A DNA stretch of 64,000 nucleotides, taken from the sequence record NC_106514.1. One strand, written 5' to 3'. Below, in pieces: positions 16,825 through 44,079 of this stretch (the first letter of the stretch is position 1; each line of letters starts with the position of its first letter). Origin of the DNA: Escherichia phage vB_EcoS_ESCO40. The notes under the pieces were generated by a model. It was given only the letters and a program-made list of their open reading frames with translations. It had not been told where the DNA came from and did not search any database. Made by a program: the position numbers and the translations under genes.

Positions 16825-17139
16825 TTACAGATCGGGGCGTTCATCTTCGAAACAGCCTGAGCTGATTCCCTCTCCGAATCCTACAAAGCCATCAAATTCA
16901 TCATTTGAGATGCTCATAATCATTGCTTCCATTTTCCGGATCTCCGAGGTTTTCATGCCTGCTTTACTATTCTTATAATATTTGCGGGGGTTCCCGCACA
17001 TCCAACAAGAACAGATGCAAGGAGTAGTAGTGATAATACCTAACCGCTTAGGGCTTTCTTCATGTGGAAAGACTGTCCAGTACTTCTTGCGGTTGTTCTT
17101 CACACGTTGCCGGTGATGGCGTCTTAATGCTCGATCCAC
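16825..17139 (-). CDS. basic Cys-cluster protein (104 aa, GTG start)
   Basis: RBS AGGAGA 5 nt before GTG; CICSCWMCGN cluster. Confidence 0.45.
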   Translation of the reverse strand: MDRALRRHHRQRVKNNRKKYWTVFPHEESPKRLGIITTTPCICSCWMCGNPRKYYKNSKAGMKTSEIRKMEAMIMSISNDEFDGFVGFGEGISSGCFEDERPDL

Positions 17140-17220: not shown

Positions 17221-17589
17221 TTACATCGCCTGAGTAAATGTACGACTAATAACGTCGTTCTGTTGTTCACGCGTCAGTGCGTTAAAACGTACAGCGTACC
17301 CTGAAACACGGATAGTTAATTGAGGGTATTTTTCAGGATGTTTCTGTGCATCCAAAAGCTGATCACGACTTAACACATTGACATTTAGGTGTTGACCACC
17401 TTCAATTTGAGGGGCGACTTCCACCTTGACTTCACGGAAGGATTCGGGGTCAAAATGGGGTGTGATACCCTCTAGATCTTCAACTAGAACTTTTTGTTTA
17501 AGTTCACCATCTTTAGAGTATAATTGAATAATCTGATTATTATGAACAATATTAATTACGCCAGATTTAAGATTTTGGTACGCTTTCAT
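17221..17589 (-). CDS. autonomous glycyl-radical cofactor (GrcA/YfiD-like)
   Basis: C-terminus [11 protein letters not shown]...[20 protein letters not shown] matches the glycyl-radical domain of GrcA/PflB as I recall it; RBS CAGGAG before ATG at 17589. Confidence 0.7.
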
Positions 17590-17775
17590 TAGATCTCCTG
17601 TTTGGTAGTTAGTAGTGGGTTTGAACCACTGTAGTCGCTCCGTATGAAGGAGGTGCATAACCACTCTGCCAACTAACTATTATGTTTTACTAGGCTAAGT
17701 AAGTATTCTTTGTACTCTTTAGACCAACTAGCTTTTTTAAACTTTCCTGGACGCATAGTCTTAATTCCTAGATTT

Positions 17776-17852
17776 GGTACTCCGGGAGGGATTTAAACCC
17801 CCGATCTCTCGGTTATCAGCCGAGTGCTTTAGATCGCTAAGCTACCGAAGCA
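17776..17852 (-). tRNA. tRNA-Ile (anticodon GAU)
   Basis: Cloverleaf by eye: anticodon stem CTCGG/CCGAG, loop CTGATAA, T-loop TTTAAAT, CCA encoded. Confidence 0.75.
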
Positions 17853-17866
17853 TTAAAATAATTACA

Positions 17867-18157
17867 TCACACACTGTCTAAGTAAGAAGTATAATGGAAT
17901 TTAGCTTCTCCAGTCTTATCTACTTCTACCTCAGTTCGTGGTACTTGACGAACTACACCATGAATCATCTTATAGCGAATACCTTTAGCTGGTTCATGAT
18001 CTTTTGGAAATACTTGTTTAACCGTTACTACTTTATACCCCTCTCGCGGTGTTAATACAACTATTTGATCACCTTCTTTGATTTTCCAAGAAGATGGAAA
18101 TTCATAGGTGTATCTTTGGCCACCAGTTTGGAATACTACAGAAAGATAACGCTTCAT
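17867..18157 (-). CDS. hypothetical protein (96 aa)
   Basis: ORF behind promoter. Confidence 0.5.
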   Translation of the reverse strand: MKRYLSVVFQTGGQRYTYEFPSSWKIKEGDQIVVLTPREGYKVVTVKQVFPKDHEPAKGIRYKMIHGVVRQVPRTEVEVDKTGEAKFHYTSYLDSV

Positions 18158-18187
18158 TTGGTTTCCCTCTCATTAATTTATATAAAT

Positions 18188-18216
18188 ATTATAGCAAGAA
18201 ATAAGAGAGAAAGCAA
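18188..18216 (-). promoter_or_regulatory. sigma70-type early promoter (T5 family)
   Basis: TTGCTT-17-TATAAT. Confidence 0.6.
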
Positions 18217-18231
18217 ATGAATTTTTAAGTT

Positions 18232-18306
18232 TGGTGCTCCCACTAGGAATCGAACCCAGCTCAGATGCTTACAAGGCAACTGCATCGCCAACAATGCTTT
18301 AGGAGC
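18232..18306 (-). tRNA. tRNA-Thr (anticodon UGU)
   Basis: Loop CTTGTAA, T-arm CTGGG-TTCGATT-CCTAG, CCA encoded; one mismatch in anticodon stem. Confidence 0.6.
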
Positions 18307-18473
18307 GATAATCCCATTATTTCAACGGGATTTCTTTTTCAAATACAGGGGATTTATCTGACATTACTGTCATTGCCAACTGCTGAAGAAACTCGAAAGT
18401 TAGCTTTAAGCGTTCTTCGCCTAATTCAACCTCAACGTATTTCTTTTGTTTGTCAACCTTTAATTTTAGGTTA

Positions 18474-18695
18474 TCAGCCATCTTCGGATTCTCGTTGCTC
18501 GGCTAATGCTAGCCAGTCTGGTAAAAGAAACTTAGTACGAAATTCTTCATACGTTTCTTCTGGATAAAAGCTAAAACCTCCTTTCTCATCATTCAAGATA
18601 ACAGAGCCGTCAGTTTGTTCGTATGCTCGATATGTTTCTCCAATAATGATAACTCGCTTATCAGTACTTTTATTACGAAACTCAAAAACGTGCAT
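18474..18695 (-). CDS. hypothetical protein (73 aa)
   Basis: ORF between tRNA genes. Confidence 0.45.
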   Translation of the reverse strand: MHVFEFRNKSTDKRVIIIGETYRAYEQTDGSVILNDEKGGFSFYPEETYEEFRTKFLLPDWLALAEQRESEDG

Positions 18696-18711
18696 AGTGT
18701 TTCCTTAAAGT

Positions 18712-18787
18712 TGGAGCGGCTAGAGGGAATCGAACCCTACTCAGCGAGGCTTGGAAGGCCTGCGACACAACCCGTGTGCTTAACCGC
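18712..18787 (-). tRNA. tRNA-Gly (anticodon UCC)
   Basis: Loop CTTCCAA; T-loop TTCGATT; CCA encoded. Confidence 0.55.
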
Positions 18788-18794
18788 GATTATT

Positions 18795-18870
18795 TGGCTG
18801 GAGAAGGAGGAATCGAACCTACCATTAACGGAGTCAAAGGCCGTTGTGCTAACCGTTACACTACTCTCCA
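18795..18870 (-). tRNA. tRNA-Gln (anticodon UUG)
   Basis: U1:A72 and G73 as in bacterial tRNA-Gln; loop CTTTGAC. Confidence 0.65.
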
Positions 18871-18876
18871 AGTATT

Positions 18877-18952
18877 TGGCTGGGATGCCACGGATCGAAC
18901 GTGGAACCTTCGGAGGCAGAGGCCGACGATCTGCCAATTGATCTACATCCCA
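18877..18952 (-). tRNA. tRNA-Gln-like (anticodon CUG), atypical position 37
   Basis: U1/G73, loop CTCTGCC with C at position 37; perfect T-arm CCACG-TTCGATC-CGTGG. Confidence 0.45.
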
Positions 18953-18965
18953 ATAATTCTTTACT

Positions 18966-19160
18966 CTATGGAAATAGAGTAACTGGCTCAGGTTCTTCAA
19001 GGCGCTTACCTTCATGATCTACTCGAATGACTCCGCACCCTTCGCAAACCACAACTGCACCATAACCTTCTTTGACTTCGGCTTCTGTAATCAGACCAGA
19101 TAAGTCACCAGTATCTCTACCCCACATATCAATGGAGCATTGTTTGCAGAACTCAGCCAT
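18966..19160 (-). CDS. small zinc-ribbon protein (64 aa)
   Basis: CxxC...CxxC pairs (CKQC, CEGC). Confidence 0.45.
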   Translation of the reverse strand: MAEFCKQCSIDMWGRDTGDLSGLITEAEVKEGYGAVVVCEGCGVIRVDHEGKRLEEPEPVTLFP

Positions 19161-19185
19161 ATTTTATTTCCTATTTAAGTTAATT

Positions 19186-19262
19186 TGGGGTGGCTAGTGG
19201 AATTCGAATCCACATAGGCCTGATTCACAATCAGGATCATTAACCAATTATGATATAGCCAC
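19186..19262 (-). tRNA. tRNA-His (anticodon GUG)
   Basis: Extra 5' G(-1), C73, loop TTGTGAA; ends TAGCCACCCCA. Confidence 0.8.
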
Positions 19263-19627
19263 AATTGAAAACTCGCAGGGTTAGCGAAACCATCCTCAAT
19301 TAGCATGTTCTAGAATACTAATCAAGTTATCTCCTATTGCACGCAGCTCAAGACTAGTACGAATTTTCAATTGTGGCGGCTCTCAGAAACTCTTCTATTC
19401 TAGCCTCAGAAGCTTACCCCCGAACGCATGTCGGGAAAGTCTTTCCAAGAGCATCAAATAGCACCGTTACACTTTGAGCCATTGATGTATCAAGGAATAG
19501 AAGGACTTGAACCTTCATGAGTTAGACCATTTAACTTAACCGCTTTTAAGGTATATTTCTAGGAGTGGATGTTCCTAGTAAACCTATTCGGCAGTCCCGT
19601 CTACCAATTCCGGCATATTCCAAGATT

Positions 19628-19722
19628 TGGAGGTAGGTAAGGGGATCGAACCCTTACACCGTATCACTACGATCAACCGATTTCAAGTCGGAGTCCAGCG
19701 CCAGCCGTTGGATTGACCTACC
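19628..19722 (-). tRNA. class II tRNA, probable tRNA-Ser (anticodon UGA)
   Basis: Acceptor GGTAGGT/ACCTACC, loop CTTGAAA, long variable arm, T-arm AAGGG-TTCGATC-CCCTT; unusually long at 95 nt. Confidence 0.5.
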
Positions 19723-20233
19723 CTATAAACTCTTCATATACTGCAAATTCCCCGAATAACTCACGTCTAAGATTATTAGCTTTATTTACAGCTTTATCTA
19801 GTTCAGTAAAAAGTCCACCATAATGGAGCTTGCCATCTTTACGTACTTCTATTTTCCACTTATTTCTTTGCTTATGCCAAGTTACATTTTTATACCCAGA
19901 GGTATTATCTACCCTTAATTTAGCATTAGCTTGATTCTGTGATACAGTGGCTATTCGTAAGTTATCCCATTTAGTATTGGACTTATCTTGATCCTTGTGG
20001 TCAATTAGATCTGGTATTTTTCCAGTCATGTATAAGAATGCTAGACGATGTGCTAACCAGCTAGTATTTCCTAGAGTTATCTTCCAATAGCCTAGTTCAT
20101 TAATAAATCCCGCTCTAGTTCCAGCATATTTACTATTCCATTGACTATCTAAATCAGATCTATATTTCCAGAAAAACTCTCCAGTATCTGGTTTATATAA
20201 CAACACGGATTTTAATTCTTGTTGTGTTAGCAT
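19718..20233 (-). CDS. HNH homing endonuclease with AP2-like domain (freestanding, inside tRNA array)
   Basis: HNH motif DLIDHKDQDKSNTKWDNLR; track start 20395 would run through a tRNA gene, so start placed at ATG 20233. Confidence 0.7.
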   Translation of the reverse strand: MLTQQELKSVLLYKPDTGEFFWKYRSDLDSQWNSKYAGTRAGFINELGYWKITLGNTSWLAHRLAFLYMTGKIPDLIDHKDQDKSNTKWDNLRIATVSQNQANAKLRVDNTSGYKNVTWHKQRNKWKIEVRKDGKLHYGGLFTELDKAVNKANNLRRELFGEFAVYEEFIG

Positions 20234-20248
20234 ATATACTCCAATATT

Positions 20249-20342
20249 TGGCGGAAAAGATGGGAGTTGAACCCATAAGGCAATATTGCTATTACTCAAC
20301 CGATTTCCAATCGGGTTTAGTCGCCAGTCTATTTGCTTTTCC
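20249..20342 (-). tRNA. class II tRNA-Ser (anticodon GGA)
   Basis: Acceptor GGAAAAG/CTTTTCC, loop TTGGAAA, long variable arm, G73, CCA. Confidence 0.6.
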
Positions 20343-20348
20343 GTAAAA

Positions 20349-20435
20349 TGGTAGGGATGGAGGGACTCGAACCCACACGTATGTTTCAACACCAAGTTCT
20401 AAGCCTGGCGCGGCTACCAATTTCGCCACATCCCC
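20349..20435 (-). tRNA. tRNA-Leu (anticodon UAG)
   Basis: 87 nt, loop CTTAGAA, long variable arm, A73. Confidence 0.7.
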
Positions 20436-20443
20436 ATTTTGTT

Positions 20444-20517
20444 TGGTGGAGAAAGAGGGAGTTGAACCCTCGTCTTCTGCGTGCAAAGCAGATGTTCTAC
20501 CATTAAACTATATCCCC
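20444..20517 (-). tRNA. tRNA-Ala (anticodon UGC)
   Basis: G3:U70 wobble, A73, stem TCTGC/GCAGA, loop TTTGCAC. Confidence 0.75.
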
Positions 20518-20755
20518 AAATTCTTTAGTTTACTAAGGCTATTAGCTCGGCGTAACTACAGCACCTTCGCTTCGAGCGGAAGGAACCGCGTCATCTCGCA
20601 AACCCGATACACTATTCAGTTGCCGCTGAATCTAGTGGACTAATCTAGAACCTCTCCCAAATAGTAGGGATCGTGCTTTTTGGCAGCCAGTCCTAGGTCG
20701 AGCTAATACCTTAGTGAACTATGATGAGGATTTCTCCTCATCAATTTATATAAAT

Positions 20756-20784
20756 ATTATAACAAGAAATTAAGCATCAAGCAA
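20756..20784 (-). promoter_or_regulatory. sigma70-type promoter driving tRNA operon
   Basis: TTGCTT-17-TATAAT; no ORF downstream, only leader and tRNAs. Confidence 0.6.
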
Positions 20785-20802
20785 ATGAGTTTTTCTTGAA
20801 AT

Positions 20803-20878
20803 TGGTAGCGGGTTCCAGTACTGCCCTGGACTTACTTAGCTTATGAGACTAAGAAGAACTCTATGCCTCCCACCCGCA
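20803..20878 (-). tRNA. degenerate tRNA-like element (CAU anticodon loop, non-canonical T-loop)
   Basis: 76 nt with CCA, loop CTCATAA, 1:72 mismatch, T-loop GGCAGTA lacks TTC, weak D-stem. Confidence 0.3.
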
Positions 20879-20884
20879 ATTGTT

Positions 20885-20960
20885 TGGTCAGTGCGGCAGG
20901 ACTCGAACCTGCGACCCGAATCATCCAAGGATCCCACGCTACCAACTGCGCTACGCACTG
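20885..20960 (-). tRNA. tRNA-Pro (anticodon UGG)
   Basis: C1:G72 as in bacterial tRNA-Pro, loop CTTGGAT, T-arm GCAGG-TTCGAGT-CCTGC. Confidence 0.75.
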
Positions 20961-20991
20961 TTTGTTTTTGTTAACTCACTTTATAAGATAT

Positions 20992-21020
20992 ATTATACAG
21001 AGAATTAAGCTAAATAGCAA
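20992..21020 (-). promoter_or_regulatory. sigma70-type promoter driving tRNA operon
   Basis: TTGCTA-17-TATAAT. Confidence 0.6.
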
Positions 21021-21168
21021 ATGAATTTTTAATAAATTTACTTATTGTGTAGGCCACCTGGAGGCTATGAACCCACGGCTGACAAAGAAATTTGCGAGAC
21101 TTCTCTTAAAAGCCAGAATAGATCCGCCGATCTATCGGAACCTACATAATAAGTAAACTTTATAGTGT

Positions 21169-21289
21169 CATTCTAGACAGGACTCGAACCTGCTATCACT
21201 TGTGCGGACTTACGAGAACCATTCTTTCACTCGAATCGAACGAGCTTCTGCCCTCGCCAAGCTGGTTTCCCCATCAACCACGCTAGAAT
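21169..21289 (-). ncRNA. atypical tRNA-like RNA (121 nt, two T-arm-like hairpins)
   Basis: Perfect 7-bp acceptor pairing ATTCTAG/CTAGAAT enclosing CTCG-TTCGATT-CGAG and GCAGG-TTCGAGT-CCTGT hairpins; does not fold as a standard cloverleaf. Confidence 0.3.
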
Positions 21290-21411
21290 GTTTGATTGTT
21301 TTCAGTGCAAGAGTCCGAGTCTTGGACACGACCGCTTCGCAAGTACATAGGCAGCTTATCATGAGTCAGCACTTCCGAATTGCTAGCTCCGTGTTCTGCA
21401 CTGAAATTTTA

Positions 21412-21759
21412 TTAGTTTAACCGTAAAGTATTATCTACTTCACCATTAATTGTTCGGCATTCCTCTGGGATTGCCGGGGTGGCCTTGTATTCCCACCACT
21501 CAGCACCATCATATTCCCCACGTTCTAGCCAAGTTCCGTCGGCAAACCATACATTACCATAAAGTAATTGTCCACCATATCCAGAATCATATTCAAAGTC
21601 TAGGTTATTAAGAAAATCCTCAATGTCTTCTTCTGTATAACCTAAAGGTAATACCCAAACTTTTTTATCCCCATAATACCCGAATTCTATTTTAATACAC
21701 TTAACTTCAGAATTAGTATTTTTTAAGGCGAGTAACAGCTCTTCTTTAGCATTACGCAT
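21412..21759 (-). CDS. hypothetical acidic protein (115 aa)
   Basis: ORF. Confidence 0.5.
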   Translation of the reverse strand: MRNAKEELLLALKNTNSEVKCIKIEFGYYGDKKVWVLPLGYTEEDIEDFLNNLDFEYDSGYGGQLLYGNVWFADGTWLERGEYDGAEWWEYKATPAIPEECRTINGEVDNTLRLN

Positions 21760-21784
21760 AGTATATTCTCATACTGAATTAATT

Positions 21785-21861
21785 TGGCGCGACCGATGGG
21801 ATTTGAACCCACATTCCCTCCCGTGACAGGGGAGTACCATTACCAAGCCAGCCCCGGTCGC
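21785..21861 (-). tRNA. tRNA-Asp (anticodon GUC)
   Basis: Acceptor GCGACCG/CGGTCGC, loop CTGTCAC, G73, CCA. Confidence 0.8.
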
Positions 21862-21870
21862 ATAATTTAT

Positions 21871-22056
21871 TTACTCAGCTTTGAGTTTTTCAATAGCTGC
21901 ATTAAGTTCTTTAAGAAACTCTTTTCGTACATTAAGACGATTGAGACTTACTAGTATATCATGTTTAAGTTCTTCGATGTATTTCTTCTCAACTTCAATA
22001 TTGTTGATAGTGCTATCACGATGAACTTCTAGCTGCGCAATCACATTCTTGGACAT
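21871..22056 (-). CDS. small coiled-coil protein (61 aa)
   Basis: ORF. Confidence 0.4.
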   Translation of the reverse strand: MSKNVIAQLEVHRDSTINNIEVEKKYIEELKHDILVSLNRLNVRKEFLKELNAAIEKLKAE

Positions 22057-22157
22057 GCTTGTTTCCTCAGTTATTAACGAAAATGGTATCTGTGGCTGAA
22101 TTCGATGTCAGCAATGATAGCTGGTTGGCTACCGGTTTACTTAACTCTACACAGAAT

Positions 22158-22240
22158 TTGGCGGGCCGTGTAGGATTCGAACCTACGTTGTCTTTCGACA
22201 TGGATTAACAGTCCACCGCCAAACCGCTTGGCTAACGACC
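22158..22240 (-). tRNA. tRNA with Asn anticodon (GUU) and a 13-nt variable arm
   Basis: Loop CTGTTAA, perfect T-arm GTAGG-TTCGAAT-CCTAC, variable region GTCGAAAGACAAC forming a GAAA-capped mini-hairpin; 83 nt. Confidence 0.5.
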
Positions 22241-22393
22241 CTAAATTTATATTGCTGACTAGGATTTTCACCTAGACGGAGTTAGCACCGTAGCGTGTAG
22301 CGGCATACCTCTCCAAACCGTGCCTCATCTTTCAATTACGGAGACAGTGTTCCTACGCGTGCCTGAATTGATTTAACAATTCTTTCAGCAAAT

Positions 22394-22469
22394 TGGACGA
22401 CCGCATGAGATTTGAACTCACATAAAAAGGATTTGCAATCCTTCGCCTAAGCCATTCAGCCAACGGTCG
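22394..22469 (-). tRNA. tRNA-Cys (anticodon GCA)
   Basis: Stem AAGGA/TCCTT, loop TTGCAAA, T-loop TTCAAAT. Confidence 0.7.
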
Positions 22470-22647
22470 GTTTATCTTGTTTTTCGAGATCTTCAAATTC
22501 TAAATCGTTGAAGTTCCCTAGAGTACGTGTATAGAACCCGTCTCCTGAGTCATAGCCTGATTTACCGCAATCGCACATTTTAAATTCGCGCAGATGTGTG
22601 AAAATATGTTCAGAACCACAACACTTAAATCTAACTAATCGTTTCAT
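22456..22647 (-). CDS. small zinc-ribbon protein (63 aa)
   Basis: CC...C..C pattern; ORF behind promoter. Confidence 0.45.
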   Translation of the reverse strand: MKRLVRFKCCGSEHIFTHLREFKMCDCGKSGYDSGDGFYTRTLGNFNDLEFEDLEKQDKPTVG

Positions 22648-22675
22648 TAGCTTCTCCAGTTCAATTTATGTAATT

Positions 22676-22704
22676 ATTATATAGAACTTTTGGAAACTAA
22701 GCAA
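22676..22704 (-). promoter_or_regulatory. sigma70-type early promoter (T5 family)
   Basis: TTGCTT-17-TATAAT. Confidence 0.6.
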
Positions 22705-22974
22705 CTACATTTTTAAGAATTTGATGCCTTTCTTTTTCTTCTTATATTTCCACGTTAATGGATTTTGTCGATTATGAACGCTTGAGATCTTTGTCTCGTC
22801 AAAGTTCTTCAATATCATGTAATCACAGGATAATTGTTCTAGTGGAATGTGATCACCGTCAAAAGCGTATACATAAGGCCGTTGACTAGCACGATAATGA
22901 TAGACTTTGTTAATTCTACGTTTCAGCGACTTATCCGCGCAGTAAATAAAGAAGTTTTCAGGATGCATCAGCAT
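22705..22974 (-). CDS. hypothetical protein (89 aa)
   Basis: RBS TAGGAGA before ATG. Confidence 0.45.
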   Translation of the reverse strand: MLMHPENFFIYCADKSLKRRINKVYHYRASQRPYVYAFDGDHIPLEQLSCDYMILKNFDETKISSVHNRQNPLTWKYKKKKKGIKFLKM

Positions 22975-22986
22975 CTCCTAAGTAAT

Positions 22987-23063
22987 TGGCGTCCTGTGCG
23001 GGGATCGAACCCGCAAACCCTACCTTGAAAGGGTAGTGACTTTACCAGTTTGTCTAACAGGAC
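22987..23063 (-). tRNA. tRNA-Glu (anticodon UUC)
   Basis: Acceptor GTCCTGT/ACAGGAC, stem CTACC/GGTAG, loop CTTTCAA, G73. Confidence 0.75.
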
Positions 23064-23069
23064 TTAAAT

Positions 23070-23157
23070 TGGTAGGGGAGGATGGAGTCGAACCACCCGA
23101 GTCGCAATGACAACTAATTTACAGTCAGCTCTGCTACCACTTACAGAATACTCCCCC
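23070..23157 (-). tRNA. tRNA-Tyr (anticodon GUA), class II
   Basis: 88 nt, loop CTGTAAA, long variable arm. Confidence 0.65.
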
Positions 23158-23282
23158 ATATTTGAATGAAAAGTAAGTCGGTTAAACTCAAGGTGGAATA
23201 TTTCAGGATTTCCTGACTTTACCCCTCAAAGCAACTCGCTTAGTTACTTCTCATTCAGATATGTTTTCCAAACTAGATAACT

Positions 23283-23311
23283 ATTATATCAAGTTTTAAG
23301 GCACTGAGCAA
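23283..23311 (-). promoter_or_regulatory. sigma70-type promoter driving tRNA operon
   Basis: TTGCTC-17-TATAAT; the -35 sits in the arm of the 23301-23340 hairpin. Confidence 0.55.
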
Positions 23312-23340
23312 GTCAAATTTTGAAGAACTTGCTCAGTGCT
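23301..23340 (-). terminator. 12-bp perfect hairpin (terminator-like) overlapping promoter -35
   Basis: gcactgagcaag ... cttgctcagtgc directly after the stop of the 23348-23623 gene. Confidence 0.45.
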
Positions 23341-23347
23341 GTATTAG

Positions 23348-23623
23348 TTAGTCGAACTTAGGAGTGACAGTTAAGGAGAACGGAAGTTCAAAAACTTCTT
23401 CACCCTCATTACTAACAGTAACTACACGACCTTTAAGTTCAGACATTGAAATATCAATATCAGCTTTTGCATCTGGAGCCATGCCAGCTTCAACACATTT
23501 AGCTTTAACTTCCGGAAGGAGTTCTACATCGTAGAAATAAAGCCATTCAATCTCACCTTCCCAGCCTTCCCAGGATTTACAGATTGCACTTTCAATACCA
23601 GTTGCTATAACTCGATTTTGCAT
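23348..23623 (-). CDS. hypothetical protein (91 aa)
   Basis: ORF, RBS AAGGAG. Confidence 0.5.
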   Translation of the reverse strand: MQNRVIATGIESAICKSWEGWEGEIEWLYFYDVELLPEVKAKCVEAGMAPDAKADIDISMSELKGRVVTVSNEGEEVFELPFSLTVTPKFD

Positions 23624-23653
23624 TCGTTAACTCCTTCATCAATTTATATAACT

Positions 23654-24459: not shown

Positions 24460-24468
24460 ATAGTTTCC

Positions 24469-36059: not shown

Positions 36060-36592
36060 TAATAAGTAACCAATTCCTGTACAAATCGCAGGCTGTTATC
36101 ACTGTTTGCGCCAACTGCATAGACTAATCGGGTGGATTCATAGTTATAATCCAGTATCATACTATCTAGGTGTATATCTGCCTCTAGCTTCTGTTCGCTA
36201 AAGATTGTAGATACAAAAGCACTTTCTATATGCCCATGTTGGTACATTTCTAGAAGAAGATTAGCTCCGCCTAGAACTACTGTTTGCTGATCTTTTAGAA
36301 AGGTAGGTAATGTATCACCTATCATTGATATGGGAGTGTAAATATCATGTGTAATATCGTCTGGCAATGGACGATCAGCACGAATAAATAGGTCAGAAGC
36401 TCCAATCATACGTTCCCTAACGGCATATGGAAGAGCTAAATAAGTACCAGCACCAATGATGATGTTATCTGGATTCAACACGTCCAGTTGAGAATAGAAA
36501 GCATCTAGTTCTTCTTTGAAGGAACCCCATGGAAGTTTACCACGGAGGCCGAACTCCCCATTCGGCCCAACTGCATATATTGCTGTAATCAT
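36059..36592 (-). CDS. frd: dihydrofolate reductase
   Basis: N-terminal IYAVGPNGEFGLRGKLPW; coupled to thyA and nrdB. Confidence 0.75.
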   Translation of the reverse strand: MITAIYAVGPNGEFGLRGKLPWGSFKEELDAFYSQLDVLNPDNIIIGAGTYLALPYAVRERMIGASDLFIRADRPLPDDITHDIYTPISMIGDTLPTFLKDQQTVVLGGANLLLEMYQHGHIESAFVSTIFSEQKLEADIHLDSMILDYNYESTRLVYAVGANSDNSLRFVQELVTY

Positions 36593-37734
36593 AAGAAATC
36601 TCCAAATTCATTACCCAGATCTTTCAGAGTATCAGTAGAGGTCTCAGTTACCTGACCTACACGGTAAGCTGCACCAATCTGGATTTCTTGCGGAGCAGGC
36701 TGTAGAGAAGTAGTATCCAACCAGTTCATGATCCACGGAATAGGGTTTTTGGTGATTACAGGCAGATTACTTGGCCATTCTACACCGATGTGCATAAATG
36801 CATTGCGCCCCACAAAGTACAGATATTCTTCTAGAAGTTCTGCATTCAAGCCAATCAGACTACGACCTTTGAAAATGAAATGACCCCATTCAATTTCAGT
36901 TTTCAGAGTTTTCAGGAGCTGTGCTGGTGCTTTAGCCACTGCCTCATCTACCAGATCTTTGTCAAATTGCTGAAACATAATCTGGATGATTGCTTTGGAC
37001 ATCTGAGTGTGCAGAGCTTCATCTTTAGCGATTAATTGCAGATTTTTAGCAATACCTTGCAGAATATCGTTCTCTGCTAATGCAAAGGTACATGCAAAGG
37101 ATGCGTAAAACTGCATTGCTTCCAGACCATAGATCGCAAAGTAAGCGTCTAATAGTTTAGCCTGAGTTTCACGTTTAACTTCAGGGAACTCAGTTTCTGG
37201 ATATGTATTGTCGCCACGATGATCGCGTACTGCAATGAAATACTGACCTAACTGGTACAGTTCATCGAATAGTTCAACAGAATCAGCGATGCGTGCGAAT
37301 GCTTCCTGGTTTTTGGTTACAGAATCAATAAATTCTGCTGGATCAGTCAACACATTACGAATAATATTACTATATGCACGGCTATGCAGATCTTCGAAGT
37401 AGCTCCACTGCTTGAGCATACCTTCCAATTCTGGACGACTTACAAGCGGCATAATAGCTGCTTCAGGAGCACGACTGATAAAGGAATCTGTTTGGGTCTG
37501 CCATGCTAAGTTCAGGAGTGTAATTTCCTGAATTTCACGTGGGAGGTTGGGCCATTGTTTCTTATCTGCTTCCAGACTGATTTCAGTTTCAGTCCAAAAT
37601 TGAGAGCGTTGCAGAAGTGCCAGACGCTCTAATTCTGGATGTGCTACACGCACATAATCTGCGATACCTAGAGAATCGCCCAGGAAAAGATCAGCGTTAG
37701 TATGATCCCAATTCAGGTTTAGTAAAGTAGTCAT
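36589..37734 (-). CDS. nrdB: ribonucleotide reductase small subunit (class I)
   Basis: Length and di-iron R2-like sequence; adjacent to large subunit. Confidence 0.8.
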   Translation of the reverse strand: MTTLLNLNWDHTNADLFLGDSLGIADYVRVAHPELERLALLQRSQFWTETEISLEADKKQWPNLPREIQEITLLNLAWQTQTDSFISRAPEAAIMPLVSRPELEGMLKQWSYFEDLHSRAYSNIIRNVLTDPAEFIDSVTKNQEAFARIADSVELFDELYQLGQYFIAVRDHRGDNTYPETEFPEVKRETQAKLLDAYFAIYGLEAMQFYASFACTFALAENDILQGIAKNLQLIAKDEALHTQMSKAIIQIMFQQFDKDLVDEAVAKAPAQLLKTLKTEIEWGHFIFKGRSLIGLNAELLEEYLYFVGRNAFMHIGVEWPSNLPVITKNPIPWIMNWLDTTSLQPAPQEIQIGAAYRVGQVTETSTDTLKDLGNEFGDFL

Positions 37735-37765
37735 TGATTTTCCTCTTTCTCACTATTTCAGGAAT

Positions 37766-37794
37766 ATTATAGCAAATCAGGTAGCGATTAGCAA
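37766..37794 (-). promoter_or_regulatory. sigma70-type early promoter (T5 family)
   Basis: TTGCTA-17-TATAAT. Confidence 0.6.
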
Positions 37795-37804
37795 GTAAAA
37801 TTTC

Positions 37805-37832
37805 AAAGAAAAAGGAGACCCGAAGATCTCCT
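37805..37832 (-). terminator. intrinsic terminator
   Basis: aggaga / tctcct stem with U-run after nrdA stop. Confidence 0.55.
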
Positions 37833-37840
37833 TGTTTTTA

Positions 37841-40172
37841 TTAAATAGTACAACCACCGGATGCACAACCTGCTGCTTCTTCTCCAGCACCTCCACCATT
37901 TGCGGTATTGAAGTTAGCATAATACCAAGTTTTCCACCCATACTTAACAGCAGTCATGAAATCACGAACTACTACTGGGCCAGGAATAATTTCATTCTCA
38001 AACTTGGTGTAGTCATAGTACATATTCGTGCTGATAGACTGACTGAAGAATTTCTGCATAGTTGCTACCCATTTGATCCACTCGATACGATCTACATCAT
38101 AAGCCAATTTATAGCTCATTAACGTTTCCCAATCGGTTGCACCTGGAGCAATTGCAATTACTTTATTTACTGCACTACCTTTGATAGATACAATCTTACG
38201 AGGTGGTTCGATAGAGTTAGTAACACCTAACAGAACAGAAGAACTTTCTCCCGGCATCTGAGCAGTCAGAACAGAGTTACGCATACCATATTTCATAATA
38301 TCTGCACGCAGAGACTCCCAATCCATTTCTAGACCTACGGATACCAGTTCATCAACAGTTTTCTTGTACGTGTCGATTACCAGAATTCCTTTAGATGGTT
38401 TAGTACGATCAAACCACTCACATGCGCCCTGTTCTTTAGCCAGGCGTACGGAGGCTTTATGCAGGAAGTAAGATAGTTTTTCAGCCTCACGGTGGATCCA
38501 GTTACGAGCTTCAATACCTTCGTAAGCCAGACCTTCTGCTGCCATTGCACCTGCTGCGTTCATTAGTCCAATACCAACATTACGACGTTTCTTAGCCGTA
38601 TATTCCATAGTTGGGAACGGATAATCCTGAATTTCAATAATTGTATCAACGAATTTCAGAAGGATGTAGCAAGTTTTTTCCCACTCAGCCAGAGATTCCA
38701 TGCGTCCTAGTACAACACCACCTAAGTTGCACAGAGATACTTCACCAATATCCTCCGGCTTCATTTGATCAAGTTGTTCTTTTGTTTTATACAGTTCCGT
38801 GATATGATGGAACGGACGTGTAGGCTGAGTAATTTCAACACAAAGGTTTGTCATACGGATCGGATCAAGGAAGTTACCGTGACGATTAGATTCCCCGATG
38901 TGGTGAGCATACATACGTCCTGTTTCCATTCGGATACGTAGCCAAGTATCTAGGATTTCTTTTGCAGAGACTTTAGGAGCTGCTGGAACTGTTTTTCCTT
39001 CGTGGTCGATCTTTGTAAGAGATGCCACACGTTTCTCCGCTGCCACATAGATTTCTTCAAATTTAGCCTCGTCATCACTATAAAACGCTTCATGAACTTC
39101 TGGAGCATAGAAGTATGACATTAGCGTAATATCTTCATTTTTCAGATAACGTTTTAACAAAAGATTGTTGAAGCTCAGAGAATAATCCATCTTATCGATT
39201 TTATTCTCATCTGTAGCACGTTGCTGCTTAACCTGCATCAATTGAATGATTTCAGGGTCAAAGTATGGATAAGACACTGTAGCAGAACCACCACGAGTTT
39301 GCTGAGTATTGGCCTTTACTGAGCGGTCAATGTGTCGATAATATGGCAGTTTTCCGGAATGCGGGAATGCCCCATTTCGCACCGGATCAGCAATTGATCG
39401 GCTTTCAAGATGATACCCGATTCCCGCTCTGGCTGCGACCATTTTGAAGACGATGTGCTCGGCTGTGTCGATTGAATCCAATGTGTCAGTGGAATCCACG
39501 AGGCAACAACTAGCAAATCCACGATCACTAGAGCGCAAGCCAACCAATGGCGGCGTAGGAATGTTGATTTTGTGTAGCGACATTGCGTTGTAGAGGTCGA
39601 TTGCATCTAGAATTGTCCAATTAGGTTGAGATAACATCGCCATTGCCATACCCATATAGGCGAATTGCGGGGTTTCGTAAATTTCGCCAGTTGCGATATT
39701 ACGACGGGAATACTTATCAAAGAATTGTTTCAATCCTCCGCTAGTGAAAAGACGGTCGCGATCATGGTCGATAACCTGATTCAGAGCTTCAAATTGCTCA
39801 TCGGTAATCCATGCACTCATGTCTTCCCATGCACCTACACTAACCATATGATCGTGGAAGAAGCGTAGAGAAGGTGGTTCGAAGGAATCATAAAGGCGTT
39901 TACGCATCTGCGCAAGACGTAATTCCTTTGCTGGCACGTCGTATGCTGGATTATCTTTGATAAGACTTTCAGCAGCTTTAATTAAAGCATCCATCAGAGT
40001 GTCGGAATCTACAACCCCTTTAGGCAGAGTTTTTTGAGCAGCCATAGTAATGGCTGACCAACTTACATCAACTGTTTTGCAGCCATACTCTGCCCAACCA
40101 TTGAGTTTTTCAGGAGCAAAGTCTTCTACAGTACCGTCACGTTTAATTACTTTTTCAATGCGATGGCTCATT
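37841..40172 (-). CDS. nrdA: ribonucleotide reductase large subunit (class I)
   Basis: N-terminal ATP-cone (RVIKRDGT...); start at ATG 40172 with RBS AAGGAAAA rather than track start 40276. Confidence 0.85.
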
Positions 40173-40315
40173 TGGTTTTCCTTTTTATAGTTATCAGGAT
40201 TTAGGAAATAGTTTACTTTATTCTCAGTCATTTGGCAAATAAAATTTTCTGATAGAAAAGGCCCGAGTATTTTCATACCCAGGCCTTCTGTGTTGTCAGT
40301 CTAGTTTTTGGCCAC

Positions 40316-41594: not shown

Positions 41595-42266
41595 ATGGTA
41601 AGAAAGAAAATAACTACAGAAGATGTGAACTTAACACTTGCTCCCAGAGGAATAATTATGCTAAGCACGTATATATCAGCTAAATCCAATGCTATATTTA
41701 AGTGCTCTAATGGACATAGTTGGGAGGCTAGAGTAGATAATGTAAAAGGTGGGAGAGGTTGCCCTTATTGTGCTAGTCGTACTTTAGATCTTAAAGAGGT
41801 AAGTGAATCCTTAGCTGCTCGTGGAATAAAGATGGAAGGTAAATACATCAATTCTAAGAGTAAAATTATGTTCAGCTGTGAGAATAATCATAGGTGGGAG
41901 TCTACACTTGATAGTGTTAGAAACCATAGTTCTGGTTGTCCTATATGTTTATTAGAGAAGGATAATTATCCTACTAGCGTATATATTTTAATAAGTAATG
42001 TGGGAACCAAAATAGGAGTGTCTAGCAGAACTAAAGATAGACTCAGAGATATTAAAACTTCTTCTAACATACATGATTTAAAAATATTTAAGGAATATAG
42101 CTTTTCAGATAGATCAAAAGCTATGCGTATTGAAAGAGAGGCCCATTTACAGTTTAAGGAATATAATTGTCAGTACAAAGATTTTGATGGTGCTACAGAA
42201 TTTTTTAATATTGAGCCAGAAGTAGTAGCAAGGTTTATTGAGGAAATAATTAATGACAGAGAATGA
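41595..42266 (+). CDS. zinc-ribbon repeat protein with GIY-YIG-like C-terminal domain
   Basis: Two repeats of ...C.NGH.WE......CPYC/CPIC, then YILISNVG...RLRDIK; overlaps nrdD start. Confidence 0.55.
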   Translation: MVRKKITTEDVNLTLAPRGIIMLSTYISAKSNAIFKCSNGHSWEARVDNVKGGRGCPYCASRTLDLKEVSESLAARGIKMEGKYINSKSKIMFSCENNHRWESTLDSVRNHSSGCPICLLEKDNYPTSVYILISNVGTKIGVSSRTKDRLRDIKTSSNIHDLKIFKEYSFSDRSKAMRIEREAHLQFKEYNCQYKDFDGATEFFNIEPEVVARFIEEIINDRE

Positions 42267-44079
42267 ATTAATTGAGAATTGCAAAGGTCTGCTCACTCTA
42301 ACTGCGGATAAGGACTTACAGCATAATAATGCTAATAAGCCTAGTGAGATGTTCCATACTCAAAGAGACTTATTAGCTGGGGAAATTAACAAGTATTTAG
42401 TATCGCAAGAATTACCTAAACACCTGTTAGACGCACATAATCTAGGTAAAATACACATTCATGACATGGACTACAGAGCACAAGGGTACACCAACTGTTG
42501 CTTAGTAGATCTAGGCGGTATGCTGAAAAATGGCACTAAAATTGGTAACGCAAATATTGAAACCCCTAAATCCATAACTACTGCATGCGCGATTACTGCT
42601 CAGATTATTGCTCAAGTATCGGGTGCTCAGTATGGTGGCACCTCTATTGATCGTATCGATGAGGTTTTAGCCCCCTATGTCAGAAAGTCTTATGATAAAC
42701 ACCTGGGTCGTGGGCTACGTTGGCTCAAGGATGAAAGAAAAGCTGCTGTGTATGCTACTGAGCTTACTGAAAAAGAGTGTTATGATGCATTCCAAGCCCT
42801 AGAGTATGAAACTAATTCATTATTTAACTCTAATGGGCAGACCCCTTTTGTTACGCTTGGCTTTGGATTAGGTCAAGAGTGGGAGGAAAGGATGATTCAG
42901 AAAGCCATCCTCCAAAATCGTATTAAAGGTTTAGGTGCTGCTGAGTCAACCCCTATCTTCCCTAAACTAGTATTCTCAGTTAAAGAAGGGTTAAATAAAA
43001 ATCCAGGTGATCCTAACTATGATATAAAACAGCTAGCACTTGAGTGTTCTGCTACTCGTATGTATCCAGACTATTTAAGTTACGAGAGAGTTGTAGCTGT
43101 TACTGGTGATTTTAAAGCCCCTATGGGTTGTCGTAGTTTTTTATCTGCTATCCCCTCTGGAGAAATTGCAGGGCGTAATAATTTAGGTGTTGTGTCTATC
43201 AATCTACCTATGGTTGCTGCTGAGGCAGATGGAGTTTTTGAAGATTTCTGGGATATTCTAGACAAATATGTGGATGAGGCTTTTGAAGCGCATGACTTCT
43301 TCTTAAACAGACTGAAGAAAGTTAAGGCTAAACAAGCCCCTATTCTTTATATGCACGGTGGTTTTGGTGTACGTTTAGAAGGGGAAGAATATGTATGGCC
43401 TATTTTTGAGGGTAGATCCTCTGTATCTCTTGGGTATATTGGGGTCTATGAGATGTGCCAAATAATGTTTAGTTTACCACAGACTCATAGGGACTGTATT
43501 GAATTTACAGAGGAAGTTCTCACTCACTTAAAAAATCGTTGCGAAGTTAAAGCTAATGAGACTAATCTTGGGTTTAGCTTGTATGCTACTCCTAGTGAGT
43601 CTCTGTGTAATCGCTTTAATAAATTACTGGAGCGTAGATTCCCAGAGTATTCTTGGTTAACAGACAAAGGCTATCTTACTAATAGTCACCATTTGGACGT
43701 AAGAGAGAAGGTAGCCCCAGATACTAAATTTGAGTACGAAGCTCATTTTACCAAAATAGCTAATGGGGGTAATATATCGTTTGTGGAATTACCACAAATG
43801 AAAAAATTCCATAAAGCTCTTGAATACGTAGTAGATAAGGGACTAGAGTGTAGCCATTATATCGGTGTTAATATACCGATTGACGAGTGTTTCAACTGCG
43901 GATATATGGGTGAATCTATTGCCTCTGAGCGTGGGTTTGTATGTCCAAGTTGTGGGTCTGAAGAAATAGAGGTTACACGTAGGGTTTGCGGGTACCTGGG
44001 ATCCCCGGGCAGTAGGCCTTTCAATTCTGGGAAACAAAAAGAAGTGCTTGGTAGAGTAAAACACTTAAATCTTAAGTAA
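42253..44079 (+). CDS. nrdD: anaerobic ribonucleoside-triphosphate reductase (class III)
   Basis: C-terminal zinc-ribbon CFNCGY...CPSCGS and glycyl-radical motif RVCGYLG. Confidence 0.85.
   Translation: MTENELIENCKGLLTLTADKDLQHNNANKPSEMFHTQRDLLAGEINKYLVSQELPKHLLDAHNLGKIHIHDMDYRAQGYTNCCLVDLGGMLKNGTKIGNANIETPKSITTACAITAQIIAQVSGAQYGGTSIDRIDEVLAPYVRKSYDKHLGRGLRWLKDERKAAVYATELTEKECYDAFQALEYETNSLFNSNGQTPFVTLGFGLGQEWEERMIQKAILQNRIKGLGAAESTPIFPKLVFSVKEGLNKNPGDPNYDIKQLALECSATRMYPDYLSYERVVAVTGDFKAPMGCRSFLSAIPSGEIAGRNNLGVVSINLPMVAAEADGVFEDFWDILDKYVDEAFEAHDFFLNRLKKVKAKQAPILYMHGGFGVRLEGEEYVWPIFEGRSSVSLGYIGVYEMCQIMFSLPQTHRDCIEFTEEVLTHLKNRCEVKANETNLGFSLYATPSESLCNRFNKLLERRFPEYSWLTDKGYLTNSHHLDVREKVAPDTKFEYEAHFTKIANGGNISFVELPQMKKFHKALEYVVDKGLECSHYIGVNIPIDECFNCGYMGESIASERGFVCPSCGSEEIEVTRRVCGYLGSPGSRPFNSGKQKEVLGRVKHLNLK

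What the first reader, a model, noticed from the sequence alone, without database searches (positions are those of the whole stretch)
17221..17589. Stand-alone GrcA-like glycyl-radical protein; nrdD present but no nrdG seen
The 122-aa product ends with the glycyl-radical signature ([12 protein letters not shown]) and aligns closely with E. coli GrcA as I recall it. The phage also encodes class III RNR NrdD (42253-44079) with its own glycyl-radical motif, but I found no radical-SAM CxxxCxxC activase anywhere in the window. The phage may rely on host activases and carry a spare radical domain to repair oxygen-damaged host PflB or its own NrdD.
Basis: partly seen in the sequence, partly recalled or inferred. 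Interest (0 to 1): 0.5.

Follow-up and report, generated by a model that had tools for sequence, protein, structure and literature searches.

The report
Phage T5 spare glycyl-radical protein
This is the already catalogued phage T5 gene T5.056, a small "spare part" protein of the GrcA/YfiD kind. It most likely lets the phage keep the host's oxygen-damaged pyruvate formate-lyase running, so the finding is real but ordinary.

Summary
A 122-aa ORF lies on the minus strand at 17221-17589 and carries an exact RVSGYAV glycyl-radical motif (Gly97). It has a strong Shine-Dalgarno site and sits directly behind a tRNA-Met gene. The window is a T5-like phage (Tequintavirus).

- **Identity.** The protein is 100% identical to T5.056 of reference phage T5; all 9 nucleotide differences are synonymous. 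About 435 T5-like records carry it.
- **Family.** It is a full-length homologue (52% identity, shared MKAYQ N-terminus) of T4 vs.6/Y06I. That protein was shown in 2001 to be activated by the host PFL activase and to rescue oxygen-cleaved pyruvate formate-lyase.
- **Target.** Its last 61 residues are 80% identical to the E. coli PflB C-terminus. It has no detectable similarity to the phage's own NrdD, so "repairs NrdD" is not supported.
- **Activase.** NrdD (42253-44079) is intact. No NrdG/PflA-like activase exists in the window or in three complete T5-like genomes. This nrdD-only state of T5 was reported in 2013.

Best reading: host PflA activates the spare part, which rescues host PflB, while host NrdG activates NrdD. 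Rescued PFL may also supply the formate NrdD needs (inference). Verdict: already known, low interest.

The parts
17221..17589 (-). grcA-like CDS (122 aa plus stop), orthologue of T5.056 and member of the phage vs.6/Y06I family
   Evidence: Translation. Pfam Gly_radical 3.6e-18. phrog_1209 full length, 5.8e-48. 100% aa identity to T5.056. Best PDB sequence match is YfiD 6owr, 1.6e-30.
17290..17310 (-). Codons for RVSGYAV (residues 94-100), the heptapeptide that PFL activating enzyme accepts as substrate. Radical glycine Gly97 = 17299-17301.
   Evidence: Sequence read directly, index computed. RVSGYAV as a PFL-AE substrate mimic: PMC10665898.
17595..17599 (-). Shine-Dalgarno AGGAG, 5 nt upstream of the ATG
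   Evidence: Sequence read directly.
17603..17678 (-). tRNA-Met (CAU) immediately upstream and co-oriented. It is the last member of the phage tRNA cluster and fixes the CDS start at 17589.
   Evidence: ARAGORN. Same arrangement in T5: tRNA-Met 28038-28113, T5.056 27656-28024.
42253..44079 (+). nrdD, class III (anaerobic) ribonucleotide reductase catalytic subunit, 608 aa, no ATP-cone. Glycyl motif RRVCGYLG at 43978-44001 (Gly580).
   Evidence: 52% identity to E. coli NrdD. 57% to T5 NrdD and 97.5% to the phage C13 NrdD.
36589..40276 (-). nrdB (36589-37734) and nrdA (37841-40276), the class Ia aerobic reductase. This is context showing the phage carries both aerobic and anaerobic dNTP supply.
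   Evidence: ORFs placed by nucleotide synteny with T5 nrdB/nrdA. Not scanned against Pfam here.

Best explanation
The ORF is the T5.056 orthologue, a phage-type autonomous glycyl radical cofactor ('spare part' protein) of the T4 vs.6/Y06I lineage within the GrcA/YfiD family.

Proposed mechanism:
1. The gene is transcribed with the early-region tRNA cluster (inferred from its position and from the promoters annotated in the T5 record).
2. Host pyruvate formate-lyase activating enzyme (PflA) recognises its RVSGYAV loop and abstracts an H atom from Gly97 (inferred from motif identity and from the T4 homologue).
3. The radical-bearing C-terminal domain docks onto host PflB that was cleaved at Gly734 by oxygen, replaces the lost radical domain, and restores pyruvate + CoA -> acetyl-CoA + formate. 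This is shown for T4 Y06I and E. coli YfiD, and inferred here.
4. T5 is known to degrade host DNA and shut off host expression. The infected cell therefore cannot make new PflB or induce its own grcA, so a phage copy keeps fermentative ATP and acetyl-CoA production going in microaerobic gut conditions (inference).
5. The formate made by PFL is also the reductant of class III RNR, so the spare part may indirectly feed the phage's NrdD (inference).

NrdD itself is a separate matter. It is activated by pre-existing host NrdG, because T5-like genomes encode no activase.
For: Family identity:
- Pfam Gly_radical 3.6e-18.
- The top NCBIfam hit is the GrcA model TIGR04365, E=2.5e-35.
- phrog_1209 matches end to end, 5.8e-48.
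- tblastn aligns residues 1-122 with T4 vs.6 at 52% identity. The N-terminus MKAYQxL is shared with T4 and RB43 but not with E. coli GrcA.
- PDB sequence search gives YfiD 6owr at 1.6e-30 and PFL 1h16 at 4.8e-27.
- In the AF2 model (mean pLDDT 74) Gly97 falls between two predicted strands (92-95, 98-101), and Foldseek ranks YfiD and PFL first.

Target and activase specificity:
- 80% identity to PflB 700-760.
- The RVSGYAV heptapeptide, present exactly, is by itself a competent PFL-AE substrate (PMC10665898).
- 41 columns of the C-terminal domain are invariant across 30 phage and bacterial homologues.

Function of the homologue: Y06I of T4 receives its radical from PFL-AE and restores activity to oxygen-cleaved PFL (PMC8683613 citing Wagner 2001).

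Selection:
- 9 synonymous and 0 non-synonymous differences against T5; 11 to 5 and 14 to 5 against and between other relatives.
- About 435 T5-like records hold it at 80% identity or more.

No phage activase:
- Window.
- Complete T5, C13 and S.Kent 1-2-1 genomes give no tblastn hit at E<=0.1, and an NrdG profile gives nothing below E=0.27.
- None of 40 evenly spread NrdG-positive phage records is a Tequintavirus. A block of 39 Salmonella Enteritidis PT1 phages appears in the T5-like, GrcA and nrdD tallies but not in the NrdG tally.
- PMC3653736 lists T5, SPC35 and EPS7 among the phages it discusses that carry nrdD with nrdAB, and says many such phages have nrdD only.

Host NrdG is plausible: the glycyl loop VTRRVCGYLGSP is identical to that of E. 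coli NrdD. The C-terminal region is 61-64% identical to E. coli in T5-likes against 48.5% in T4, which carries its own NrdG. NrdG acts catalytically and then dissociates, and formate is the reductant (PMC4009431).
Against: No experiment on the T5 protein was found in the searchable literature.

The N-terminal 60 residues are only about 31% identical to T4 Y06I and do not align with E. coli GrcA. In YfiD that region matters for radical installation (PMC8683613), so activation control could differ.

The protein scores 121.5 bits against the 170-bit cutoff of the GrcA equivalog model. T4 Y06I, the validated protein, also fails at 153 bits.

Cross-activation of a 52%-identical NrdD by host NrdG is untested.

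The formate link to NrdD rests on co-occurrence in few independent phage lineages and is confounded by phylogeny.

The remaining 45-55 kb of this particular phage genome was not seen.
Confidence: 0.75

Rival explanations
1. The small protein is a spare radical domain for the phage's own NrdD. After oxygen cleaves NrdD at Gly580, the protein would dock and restore ribonucleotide reduction, with host NrdG or PflA installing the radical.
For: Co-occurrence of the GrcA-like gene with nrdD in T5-like and T4-like phages. Nolan et al. 2006 speculated that vs.6 might act in nucleotide metabolism because NrdD shares the Gly_radical domain (PMC1524935). PMC8683613 notes that spare parts for other glycyl radical enzymes are conceivable.
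Against: No detectable similarity between the protein and the window's NrdD (best E=11). Its radical domain is 80% identical to PflB and carries RVSGYAV, not RRVCGYLG. The NrdD radical domain includes a Zn-ribbon (CxxC...CxxC) that the small protein lacks. According to a 2026 review, formate lyases are the only glycyl radical enzyme class with identified spare parts (PMC13450708).
Confidence: 0.03
2. The protein is a decoy or modulator rather than a repair part. It would titrate host PflA, or occupy PflB, to shut down or redirect host fermentative metabolism for the phage's benefit.
For: The phage-specific N-terminal region differs from E. coli GrcA and is predicted to be folded: a 4-strand sheet at pLDDT about 80-85. 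In YfiD the N-terminus controls activation. Early-region placement fits a host-takeover function.
Against: The T4 homologue restores rather than blocks PFL activity. The catalytic loop and the whole C-terminal domain are nearly invariant, including residues needed only if the radical is used productively. A decoy would not need 41 invariant columns matching PflB.
Confidence: 0.07
3. It rescues a different PFL-type host enzyme, such as TdcE (2-ketobutyrate formate-lyase), rather than PflB. Some records annotate it that way.
For: Annotations such as '2-ketobutyrate formate-lyase' appear in several records. In my recollection, not tested here, TdcE and PflB have very similar C-termini.
Against: Those names are automatic best-hit transfers onto a 122-aa protein. 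TdcE was not compared here. PflB is the abundant constitutive enzyme and the demonstrated partner of YfiD and Y06I. This reading is not mutually exclusive with the best explanation.
Confidence: 0.1
4. It is a non-functional passenger fragment of a captured pflB or grcA gene.
For: It is short and resembles only the C-terminal tail of a 760-aa enzyme. PHROGs labels the family 'unknown function'.
Against: It has a strong SD and an intact ORF. The excess of synonymous changes is strong, 9:0 against T5. It is retained in about 435 T5-like and about 1150 T4-like records and also in jumbo phages. The T4 homologue is active.
Confidence: 0.03

Closest known systems
Phage T5 gene T5.056 (YP_006884.1, 'putative acetyltransferase-related protein', NC_005859 27656-28024)
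   Same: 100% amino-acid identity over 122 residues. Same position directly downstream of tRNA-Met in the early tRNA cluster, and same orientation.
   Different: Nine synonymous nucleotide differences. The reference annotation name is uninformative (an InterPro IPR001150 match only).
Bacteriophage T4 vs.6 / Y06I, autonomous glycyl radical cofactor (Wagner et al. 2001)
   Same: Stand-alone protein of 120-122 aa. Alignable end to end at 52% identity, shared MKAYQxL N-terminus, C-terminal domain 80% identical, same PHROG. The phages share a lifestyle: virulent, host-DNA-degrading, and nrdD-bearing.
   Different: The N-terminal 60 residues are only about 31% identical. T4 also encodes its own NrdG next to nrdD, whereas T5-likes do not. 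The T4 C-terminal 61 residues are identical to E. coli GrcA from IEGGQ onward except Ile for Val at the first residue, while the T5 version has its own substitutions.
E. coli GrcA/YfiD (P68066; NMR structure 6OWR)
   Same: Same size class. 74% identity over the C-terminal 72 residues, identical RVSGYAV loop, best PDB match by both sequence and fold.
   Different: The N-terminal 50 residues do not align. It scores below the TIGR04365 equivalog cutoff (121.5 against 170). The YfiD N-terminus is reported as disordered, whereas the phage N-terminus is predicted as a beta sheet with moderate confidence.
C-terminal glycyl radical domain of E. coli pyruvate formate-lyase PflB (residues 700-760)
   Same: 80% identity and 95% similarity over 61 residues with no gaps. 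This is the piece the spare part is thought to replace.
   Different: The phage protein lacks the 700-residue catalytic barrel, so it cannot be a formate acetyltransferase by itself. Annotations such as 'pyruvate formate-lyase' are misnomers.
Class III RNR operon nrdDG (E. coli, T4)
   Same: NrdD is intact. It keeps the active-site Cys motifs NC(C/M)L and PMGCRSFL, the Zn-ribbon and the RRVCGYLG loop.
   Different: No nrdG. The slot after nrdD holds an unrelated 93-aa ORF. This is an nrdD-only arrangement, as already noted for T5, SPC35 and EPS7.

Membership tests
[quoted passage not shown] | Small stand-alone protein (about 120-130 aa) consisting essentially of a glycyl radical domain | tested here: met
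   122 aa. Pfam PF01228 is the only domain, at residues 62-103.
[quoted passage not shown] | PFL-type radical loop RVSGYAV with the radical glycine, and a C-terminal domain that duplicates the PflB C-terminus | tested here: met
   Exact RVSGYAV at residues 94-100. 80% identity to PflB 700-760. Foldseek top hits are 6owr and 2pfl.
[quoted passage not shown] | Scores above the trusted cutoff of NCBIfam equivalog TIGR04365 (170 bits) | tested here: not met
   121.5 bits, with only residues 50-122 aligned. Calibration: the biochemically validated T4 Y06I also fails at 153.3 bits, while E. coli GrcA scores 234. The cutoff therefore delimits bacterial GrcA, not the functional class.
[quoted passage not shown] | Glycyl radical installed by PFL activating enzyme (PflA) | not testable with these tools
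   Inferred only, from the exact substrate heptapeptide (PMC10665898) and from Y06I.
[quoted passage not shown] | Restores activity to oxygen-cleaved PFL | not testable with these tools
   Shown for YfiD and Y06I only (PMC8683613). No T5 data were found.
Phage vs.6/Y06I lineage (phrog_1209) | End-to-end match to the phage family profile, including the phage-type N-terminus | tested here: met
   phrog_1209 at 5.8e-48, residues 1-122 on profile positions 1-121 of 121. tblastn covers 100% of the query on T4. MKAYQ is shared.
Complete class III ribonucleotide reductase system (NrdD + NrdG) | Catalytic subunit NrdD with glycyl radical loop and Zn-ribbon | tested here: met
Complete class III ribonucleotide reductase system (NrdD + NrdG) | Cognate radical-SAM activase NrdG (CxxxCxxC cluster) encoded by the same genome | tested here: not met
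   Absent from the window and from three complete Tequintavirus genomes. The rest of this phage's own genome was not seen.
Pyruvate formate-lyase / formate C-acetyltransferase (as many records name it) | Catalytic barrel of about 750 aa with the Cys418-Cys419 active site | tested here: not met
   Only the last 61 residues of PflB are represented. TIGR01255 scores 86 bits against a cutoff of 994.

The most novel reading that the evidence does not exclude
The phage spare part may be more than a passive copy of host GrcA. It could be half of a two-gene anaerobic dNTP strategy. After host shutoff it would keep, or even force, host PflB active, and its phage-specific folded N-terminal region might relax the damage-dependent control of activation seen in YfiD. 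PFL would then keep producing the formate that the phage's NrdD consumes as reductant. This would explain why GrcA-like genes travel with nrdD in at least the T5-like and T4-like phage lineages (jumbo phages also carry GrcA-like genes, but their nrdD was not checked), and why T5-likes can dispense with nrdG but not with grcA.
Probability: 0.3. Interest if true: 0.45.

Novelty: already known. Interest (0 to 1): 0.15.

Why it matters
It matters little as a discovery. The gene has been in the T5 reference genome since the mid-2000s, its T4 homologue was characterised biochemically in 2001, and the nrdD-without-nrdG state of T5 was described in 2013.

The residual value is practical:
- The gene is inconsistently and often wrongly named in hundreds of phage records: 'pyruvate formate-lyase', '2-ketobutyrate formate-lyase', 'acetyltransferase-related', 'ribonucleotide reductase subunit'. 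PHROGs labels it 'unknown function'. It also falls below NCBI's GrcA equivalog cutoff.
- Nobody appears to have tested why virulent enterobacterial phages keep a PFL spare part. Nor has anyone tested whether T5 NrdD is really activated by host NrdG, or whether PFL-derived formate couples the two. These questions bear on phage replication in the oxygen-poor gut, and T5 genetics could answer them.

Tried and rejected
1. **Longer GTG start at 17664.** Rejected because it overlaps tRNA-Met 17603-17678, and the ATG at 17589 has an AGGAG site.

2. **The two CxxxCxxC-bearing ORFs as cryptic activases.**
- 26218-26742(-) is antisense to a 346-aa gene.
- 16825-17139(-) is 104 aa with a CxCxCxxC motif.
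- Neither has a credible Pfam match (the 104-aa ORF none; the antisense ORF only E 0.16 and 0.39, far below cutoff) or any NrdG/PflA similarity.

3. **ORF 44179-44460, directly after nrdD, as a decayed NrdG.**
- It was the top phmmer hit to E. coli NrdG, though not significant (E=0.032; 'GKDKWLWIDY' against 'GKDIWVWTGY').
- It was again among the top hits with a 3-sequence NrdG profile (E=0.49).
- Rejected on four counts: no Pfam hit; the motif is not conserved in the 79-aa subfamily; hhalign probability is 0.16%; and T5 has an unrelated ORF in that slot.

4. **Vibrio phages VMJ710 and Dax as 'T5-like phages that kept nrdG'.** VMJ710 is classified as Mohonavirus, not Demerecviridae, so the idea was dropped. 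Dax was not looked up.

5. **Literature searches for T5-specific work on this gene.** Searches on Tequintavirus plus glycyl radical, T5-like plus pyruvate formate-lyase, and T5.056/T5p056/YP_006884 found nothing relevant.

6. **Kammel & Sawers 2022 (PMC9112899).** The paper is not held, so its claim is cited only through the reference list of PMC13450708.

7. A broad search on auxiliary metabolic genes returned nothing useful.

Full report

Yes. The + strand frame at 17221-17589 is full of stops. The reverse complement gives an uninterrupted 122-codon ORF:

[122 protein letters not shown]

- The mechanical ORF list extends it to a GTG at 17664. ARAGORN places a tRNA-Met at 17603-17678 on the same strand, so that extension is excluded.
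- The ATG at 17589 is preceded by AGGAG with a 5-nt spacer.
- The glycyl-radical motif lies at residues 92-103 (Gly97). It is near the C-terminus, not at the end.
- Pfam Gly_radical matches at 3.6e-18.
- NrdD at 42253-44079 is a solid class III reductase: Pfam NRDD 1.8e-157, NCBIfam PRK09263 792 bits against a cutoff of 657. It is 52% identical to E. coli NrdD and lacks the ATP-cone.

**2. What genome is this?**

The 3 kb around the ORF match 465 phage records at 80-99% nucleotide identity. Nearly all are T5-like phages of Escherichia and Salmonella (Tequintavirus, Demerecviridae). The window maps collinearly onto T5 from about 12.0 kb to about 76 kb.

- The ORF is the orthologue of T5.056 ('putative acetyltransferase-related protein', identified by the InterPro glycine-radical domain). 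It sits just downstream of tRNA-Met at the end of the early-region tRNA cluster.
- The protein is 100% identical to T5.056.
- The two genes differ at 9 nucleotides, all synonymous. Comparisons with T5_ev219 give 11 synonymous to 5 non-synonymous codon differences, and 14 to 5. This is purifying selection on a real gene.
- Other records name it 'pyruvate formate-lyase', '2-ketobutyrate formate-lyase', 'glycine radical domain-containing protein' or 'autonomous glycyl radical cofactor GrcA'.

**3. What family is it?**

- BLASTP against E. coli GrcA gives 74% identity, but only over residues 51-122.
- Against E. coli PflB it gives 80% identity, ungapped, over the last 61 residues, PflB 700-760.
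- The N-terminal 50 residues do not align with E. coli GrcA. The NCBIfam GrcA equivalog model accordingly scores 121.5 bits, under its 170-bit cutoff.
- tblastn against 50,697 phage records finds homologues in 1,584 of them. About 435 are T5-like at 80% identity or more. About 1,150 are T4-like phages at 50-73% identity, and there the alignment covers the whole query.
- T4 vs.6 and RB43 vs.6 share the N-terminal MKAYQxL and the overall length. PHROG 1209, labelled 'unknown function', matches end to end at 5.8e-48.
- T4 vs.6 is Y06I. According to PMC8683613, citing Wagner et al. 2001, YfiD of E. coli and Y06I of T4 are the only two validated 'spare part' proteins. Each receives a glycyl radical from the PFL activating enzyme and restores activity to oxygen-cleaved PFL.
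- Y06I itself scores only 153 bits on TIGR04365. The failed cutoff is therefore a property of the model, not evidence against function.
- A wider search shows the same small protein in jumbo phages (K64-1, SE_PL, fHe-Yen9-03, Vibrio phage D479) and in Vibrionaceae and Aeromonas GrcAs. In an alignment of 30 of these, 41 C-terminal columns are invariant.
- The best solved-structure matches are YfiD (6owr, 1.6e-30) and PFL.
- An AlphaFold2 model (mean pLDDT 74) places Gly97 between two predicted strands (92-95, 98-101), flanked by helices. Foldseek ranks 6owr and PFL first.
- Residues 1-36 are predicted as a four-strand sheet at pLDDT about 80-85. The YfiD N-terminus is reported as disordered but is important for radical installation. 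I treat this as a possible difference, not an established one.

**4. Which enzyme does it serve?**

The small protein has no detectable similarity to the window's NrdD (best E=11).

- It carries RVSGYAV, not the RRVCGYLG of NrdD, and it lacks the Zn-ribbon that precedes the NrdD loop.
- RVSGYAV on its own is a competent substrate mimic for PFL-AE (PMC10665898).
- A 2026 review states that formate lyases are the only glycyl radical enzymes with identified spare parts (PMC13450708).
- PflB, or a close PFL-type paralogue, is therefore the supported partner and PflA the supported activase. NrdD repair is not supported.

**5. Is there really no activase?**

*In the window.*
- A six-frame scan finds two CxxxCxxC strings in segments of 60 aa or more.
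- One lies in an ORF antisense to a 346-aa gene. The other is in the 104-aa T5.055 orthologue. Neither has a credible Pfam hit.
- tblastn and phmmer --max with E. coli NrdG, T4 NrdG and E. coli PflA find nothing better than E=0.36 and E=0.032. The same queries hit the T4 nrdG control at 1e-46.

*Outside the window.* I loaded three complete Tequintavirus genomes:
- T5, 121,750 bp.
- 'Campylobacter phage C13', 99,911 bp, which has the window's NrdD allele at 97.5%.
- S.Kent 1-2-1, 113,555 bp.

All three have the GrcA-like gene and NrdD. None has an NrdG or PflA hit at E<=0.1, and an NrdG profile HMM gives nothing below E=0.27.

*Across the collection.*
- E. coli NrdG hits 2,273 phage records. 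None of 40 evenly spaced rows is a Tequintavirus.
- A block of 39 Salmonella Enteritidis PT1 phages is visible in the T5-like, GrcA and nrdD tallies. It is missing from the NrdG tally.
- This is already in the literature. Dwivedi et al. [quoted passage not shown]

*Plausibility of host NrdG.*
- The NrdD glycyl loop VTRRVCGYLGSP is identical to that of E. coli.
- The C-terminal region is 61-64% identical to E. coli in T5-type NrdDs, against 48.5% in T4, which brings its own NrdG.
- NrdG acts catalytically and dissociates after activation (PMC4009431), so pre-existing host protein could suffice.
- Cross-activation remains untested.

**6. Most likely mechanism**

Shown by sequence:
- an intact, conserved, translatable PFL-type radical domain protein;
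- NrdD without a phage activase.

Shown for homologues only:
- activation by PFL-AE;
- rescue of oxygen-cleaved PFL.

Inferred:
- T5, like T4, destroys host DNA early (established knowledge; the T5 record describes A1 as involved in host DNA degradation and shutoff). The infected cell therefore cannot replace damaged PflB or induce its own grcA. A 14-kDa phage-encoded spare part is a cheap way to keep an 85-kDa host enzyme working in fluctuating low oxygen.
- PFL makes formate, and formate is the reductant of class III RNR. The spare part may thus also support NrdD-dependent dNTP synthesis. That would rationalise why GrcA-like genes accompany nrdD in the T5-like and T4-like lineages; jumbo phages also carry GrcA-like genes, but their nrdD was not checked. 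This coupling is my inference. The co-occurrence is confounded by shared ancestry within each lineage.

**7. Things that led nowhere**

The ORF immediately after nrdD (44179-44460) was the best, but non-significant, NrdG-like segment in the window, and again in S.Kent 1-2-1. That raised the idea of a decayed nrdG.
- It has no Pfam match.
- It belongs to a tiny family found only in T5-like phages (10 clusters).
- Its 79-aa subfamily lacks the WxW motif.
- hhalign against an NrdG alignment gives a probability of 0.16%.
- T5 carries an unrelated ORF in that slot.

The idea is rejected. A Vibrio phage with adjacent nrdD-nrdG, VMJ710, turned out not to be in Demerecviridae.

**8. Verdict**

- The gene is T5.056.
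- The family was characterised through T4 Y06I.
- The nrdD-only state of T5 has been described.

Remaining open points are experimental. No T5-specific biochemistry or genetics was found. There is also an annotation-hygiene problem: misnomers in hundreds of records, 'unknown function' in PHROGs, and a sub-threshold score in NCBIfam. Interest is low.

Noticed in passing
window 41461-44479: The nrdD module is a swapped cassette. This stretch has no megablast match to T5, although both flanks are 92-97% identical at nucleotide level. The window's NrdD is only 57% identical to T5 NrdD and 60% to S.Kent 1-2-1 NrdD, but 97.5% to 'Campylobacter phage C13'. At least three NrdD alleles therefore circulate in Tequintaviruses. 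421 phage records match some part of window 41400-44700, a query that also includes conserved flanking DNA; only 6 cover 80% or more of it.
   Followed up: partly
window 41595-42266 (+): A 223-aa ORF with DUF4379 treble-clef zinc-finger, T5orf172/MUG113 (GIY-YIG-like) and CapR domains. It is inserted between phoH and nrdD and overlaps the nrdD start by 14 nt. It is absent from that position in T5. It is probably a mobile endonuclease-like gene associated with the nrdD cassette exchange.
   Followed up: partly
window 44179-44460 (+): A 93-aa ORF (phrog_7953) directly after nrdD, found only in T5-like phages (10 protein clusters). Its weak NrdG-like motif GKDKWLWIDY proved to be chance (hhalign probability 0.16%). 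T5 has an unrelated ORF (T5.100) in this slot.
   Followed up: yes
window 16825-17139 (-): The T5.055 orthologue lies immediately downstream of the grcA-like gene. It carries a cysteine-rich motif, PCICSCWMCGNPRK, has no Pfam match, and belongs to PHROG 4499 (unknown function). It may be a small metal-binding protein, but at 104 aa it is too short to be a radical-SAM activase.
   Followed up: partly
window 17603-28456 (-): 18 tRNA genes, all on the minus strand, form the T5-type tRNA cluster. The grcA-like gene is the first protein gene after its last member, tRNA-Met.
   Followed up: partly
window 17221-17589 (-), residues 1-36: AlphaFold2 predicts a four-strand beta sheet at pLDDT about 80-85 for the phage-specific N-terminus. 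The corresponding part of E. coli YfiD is reported as disordered yet important for radical installation. This could reflect a bound-state conformation or a real difference in activation control.
   Followed up: partly
window 44753-45589 (+): A Sir2-family protein (Pfam SIR2, 2.7e-24), orthologous to T5.102, lies two small ORFs downstream of nrdD.
   Followed up: no
phage collection record OR851003.1 (3,544 bp, 'Salmonella phage S.Kent 1-2-1'): This record carries an nrdG 94% identical to E. coli NrdG. It is almost certainly a host-DNA contig deposited with a phage assembly. It could mislead anyone asking whether T5-like phages encode NrdG.
   Followed up: partly
databases (NCBIfam TIGR04365, PHROG 1209, GenBank product names): Phage GrcA-type proteins, including the biochemically validated T4 Y06I (153 bits), fall below NCBI's 170-bit GrcA cutoff. 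PHROG 1209 is labelled 'unknown function'. Product names range from 'pyruvate formate-lyase' to 'ribonucleotide reductase subunit'. This is a systematic annotation gap.
   Followed up: yes
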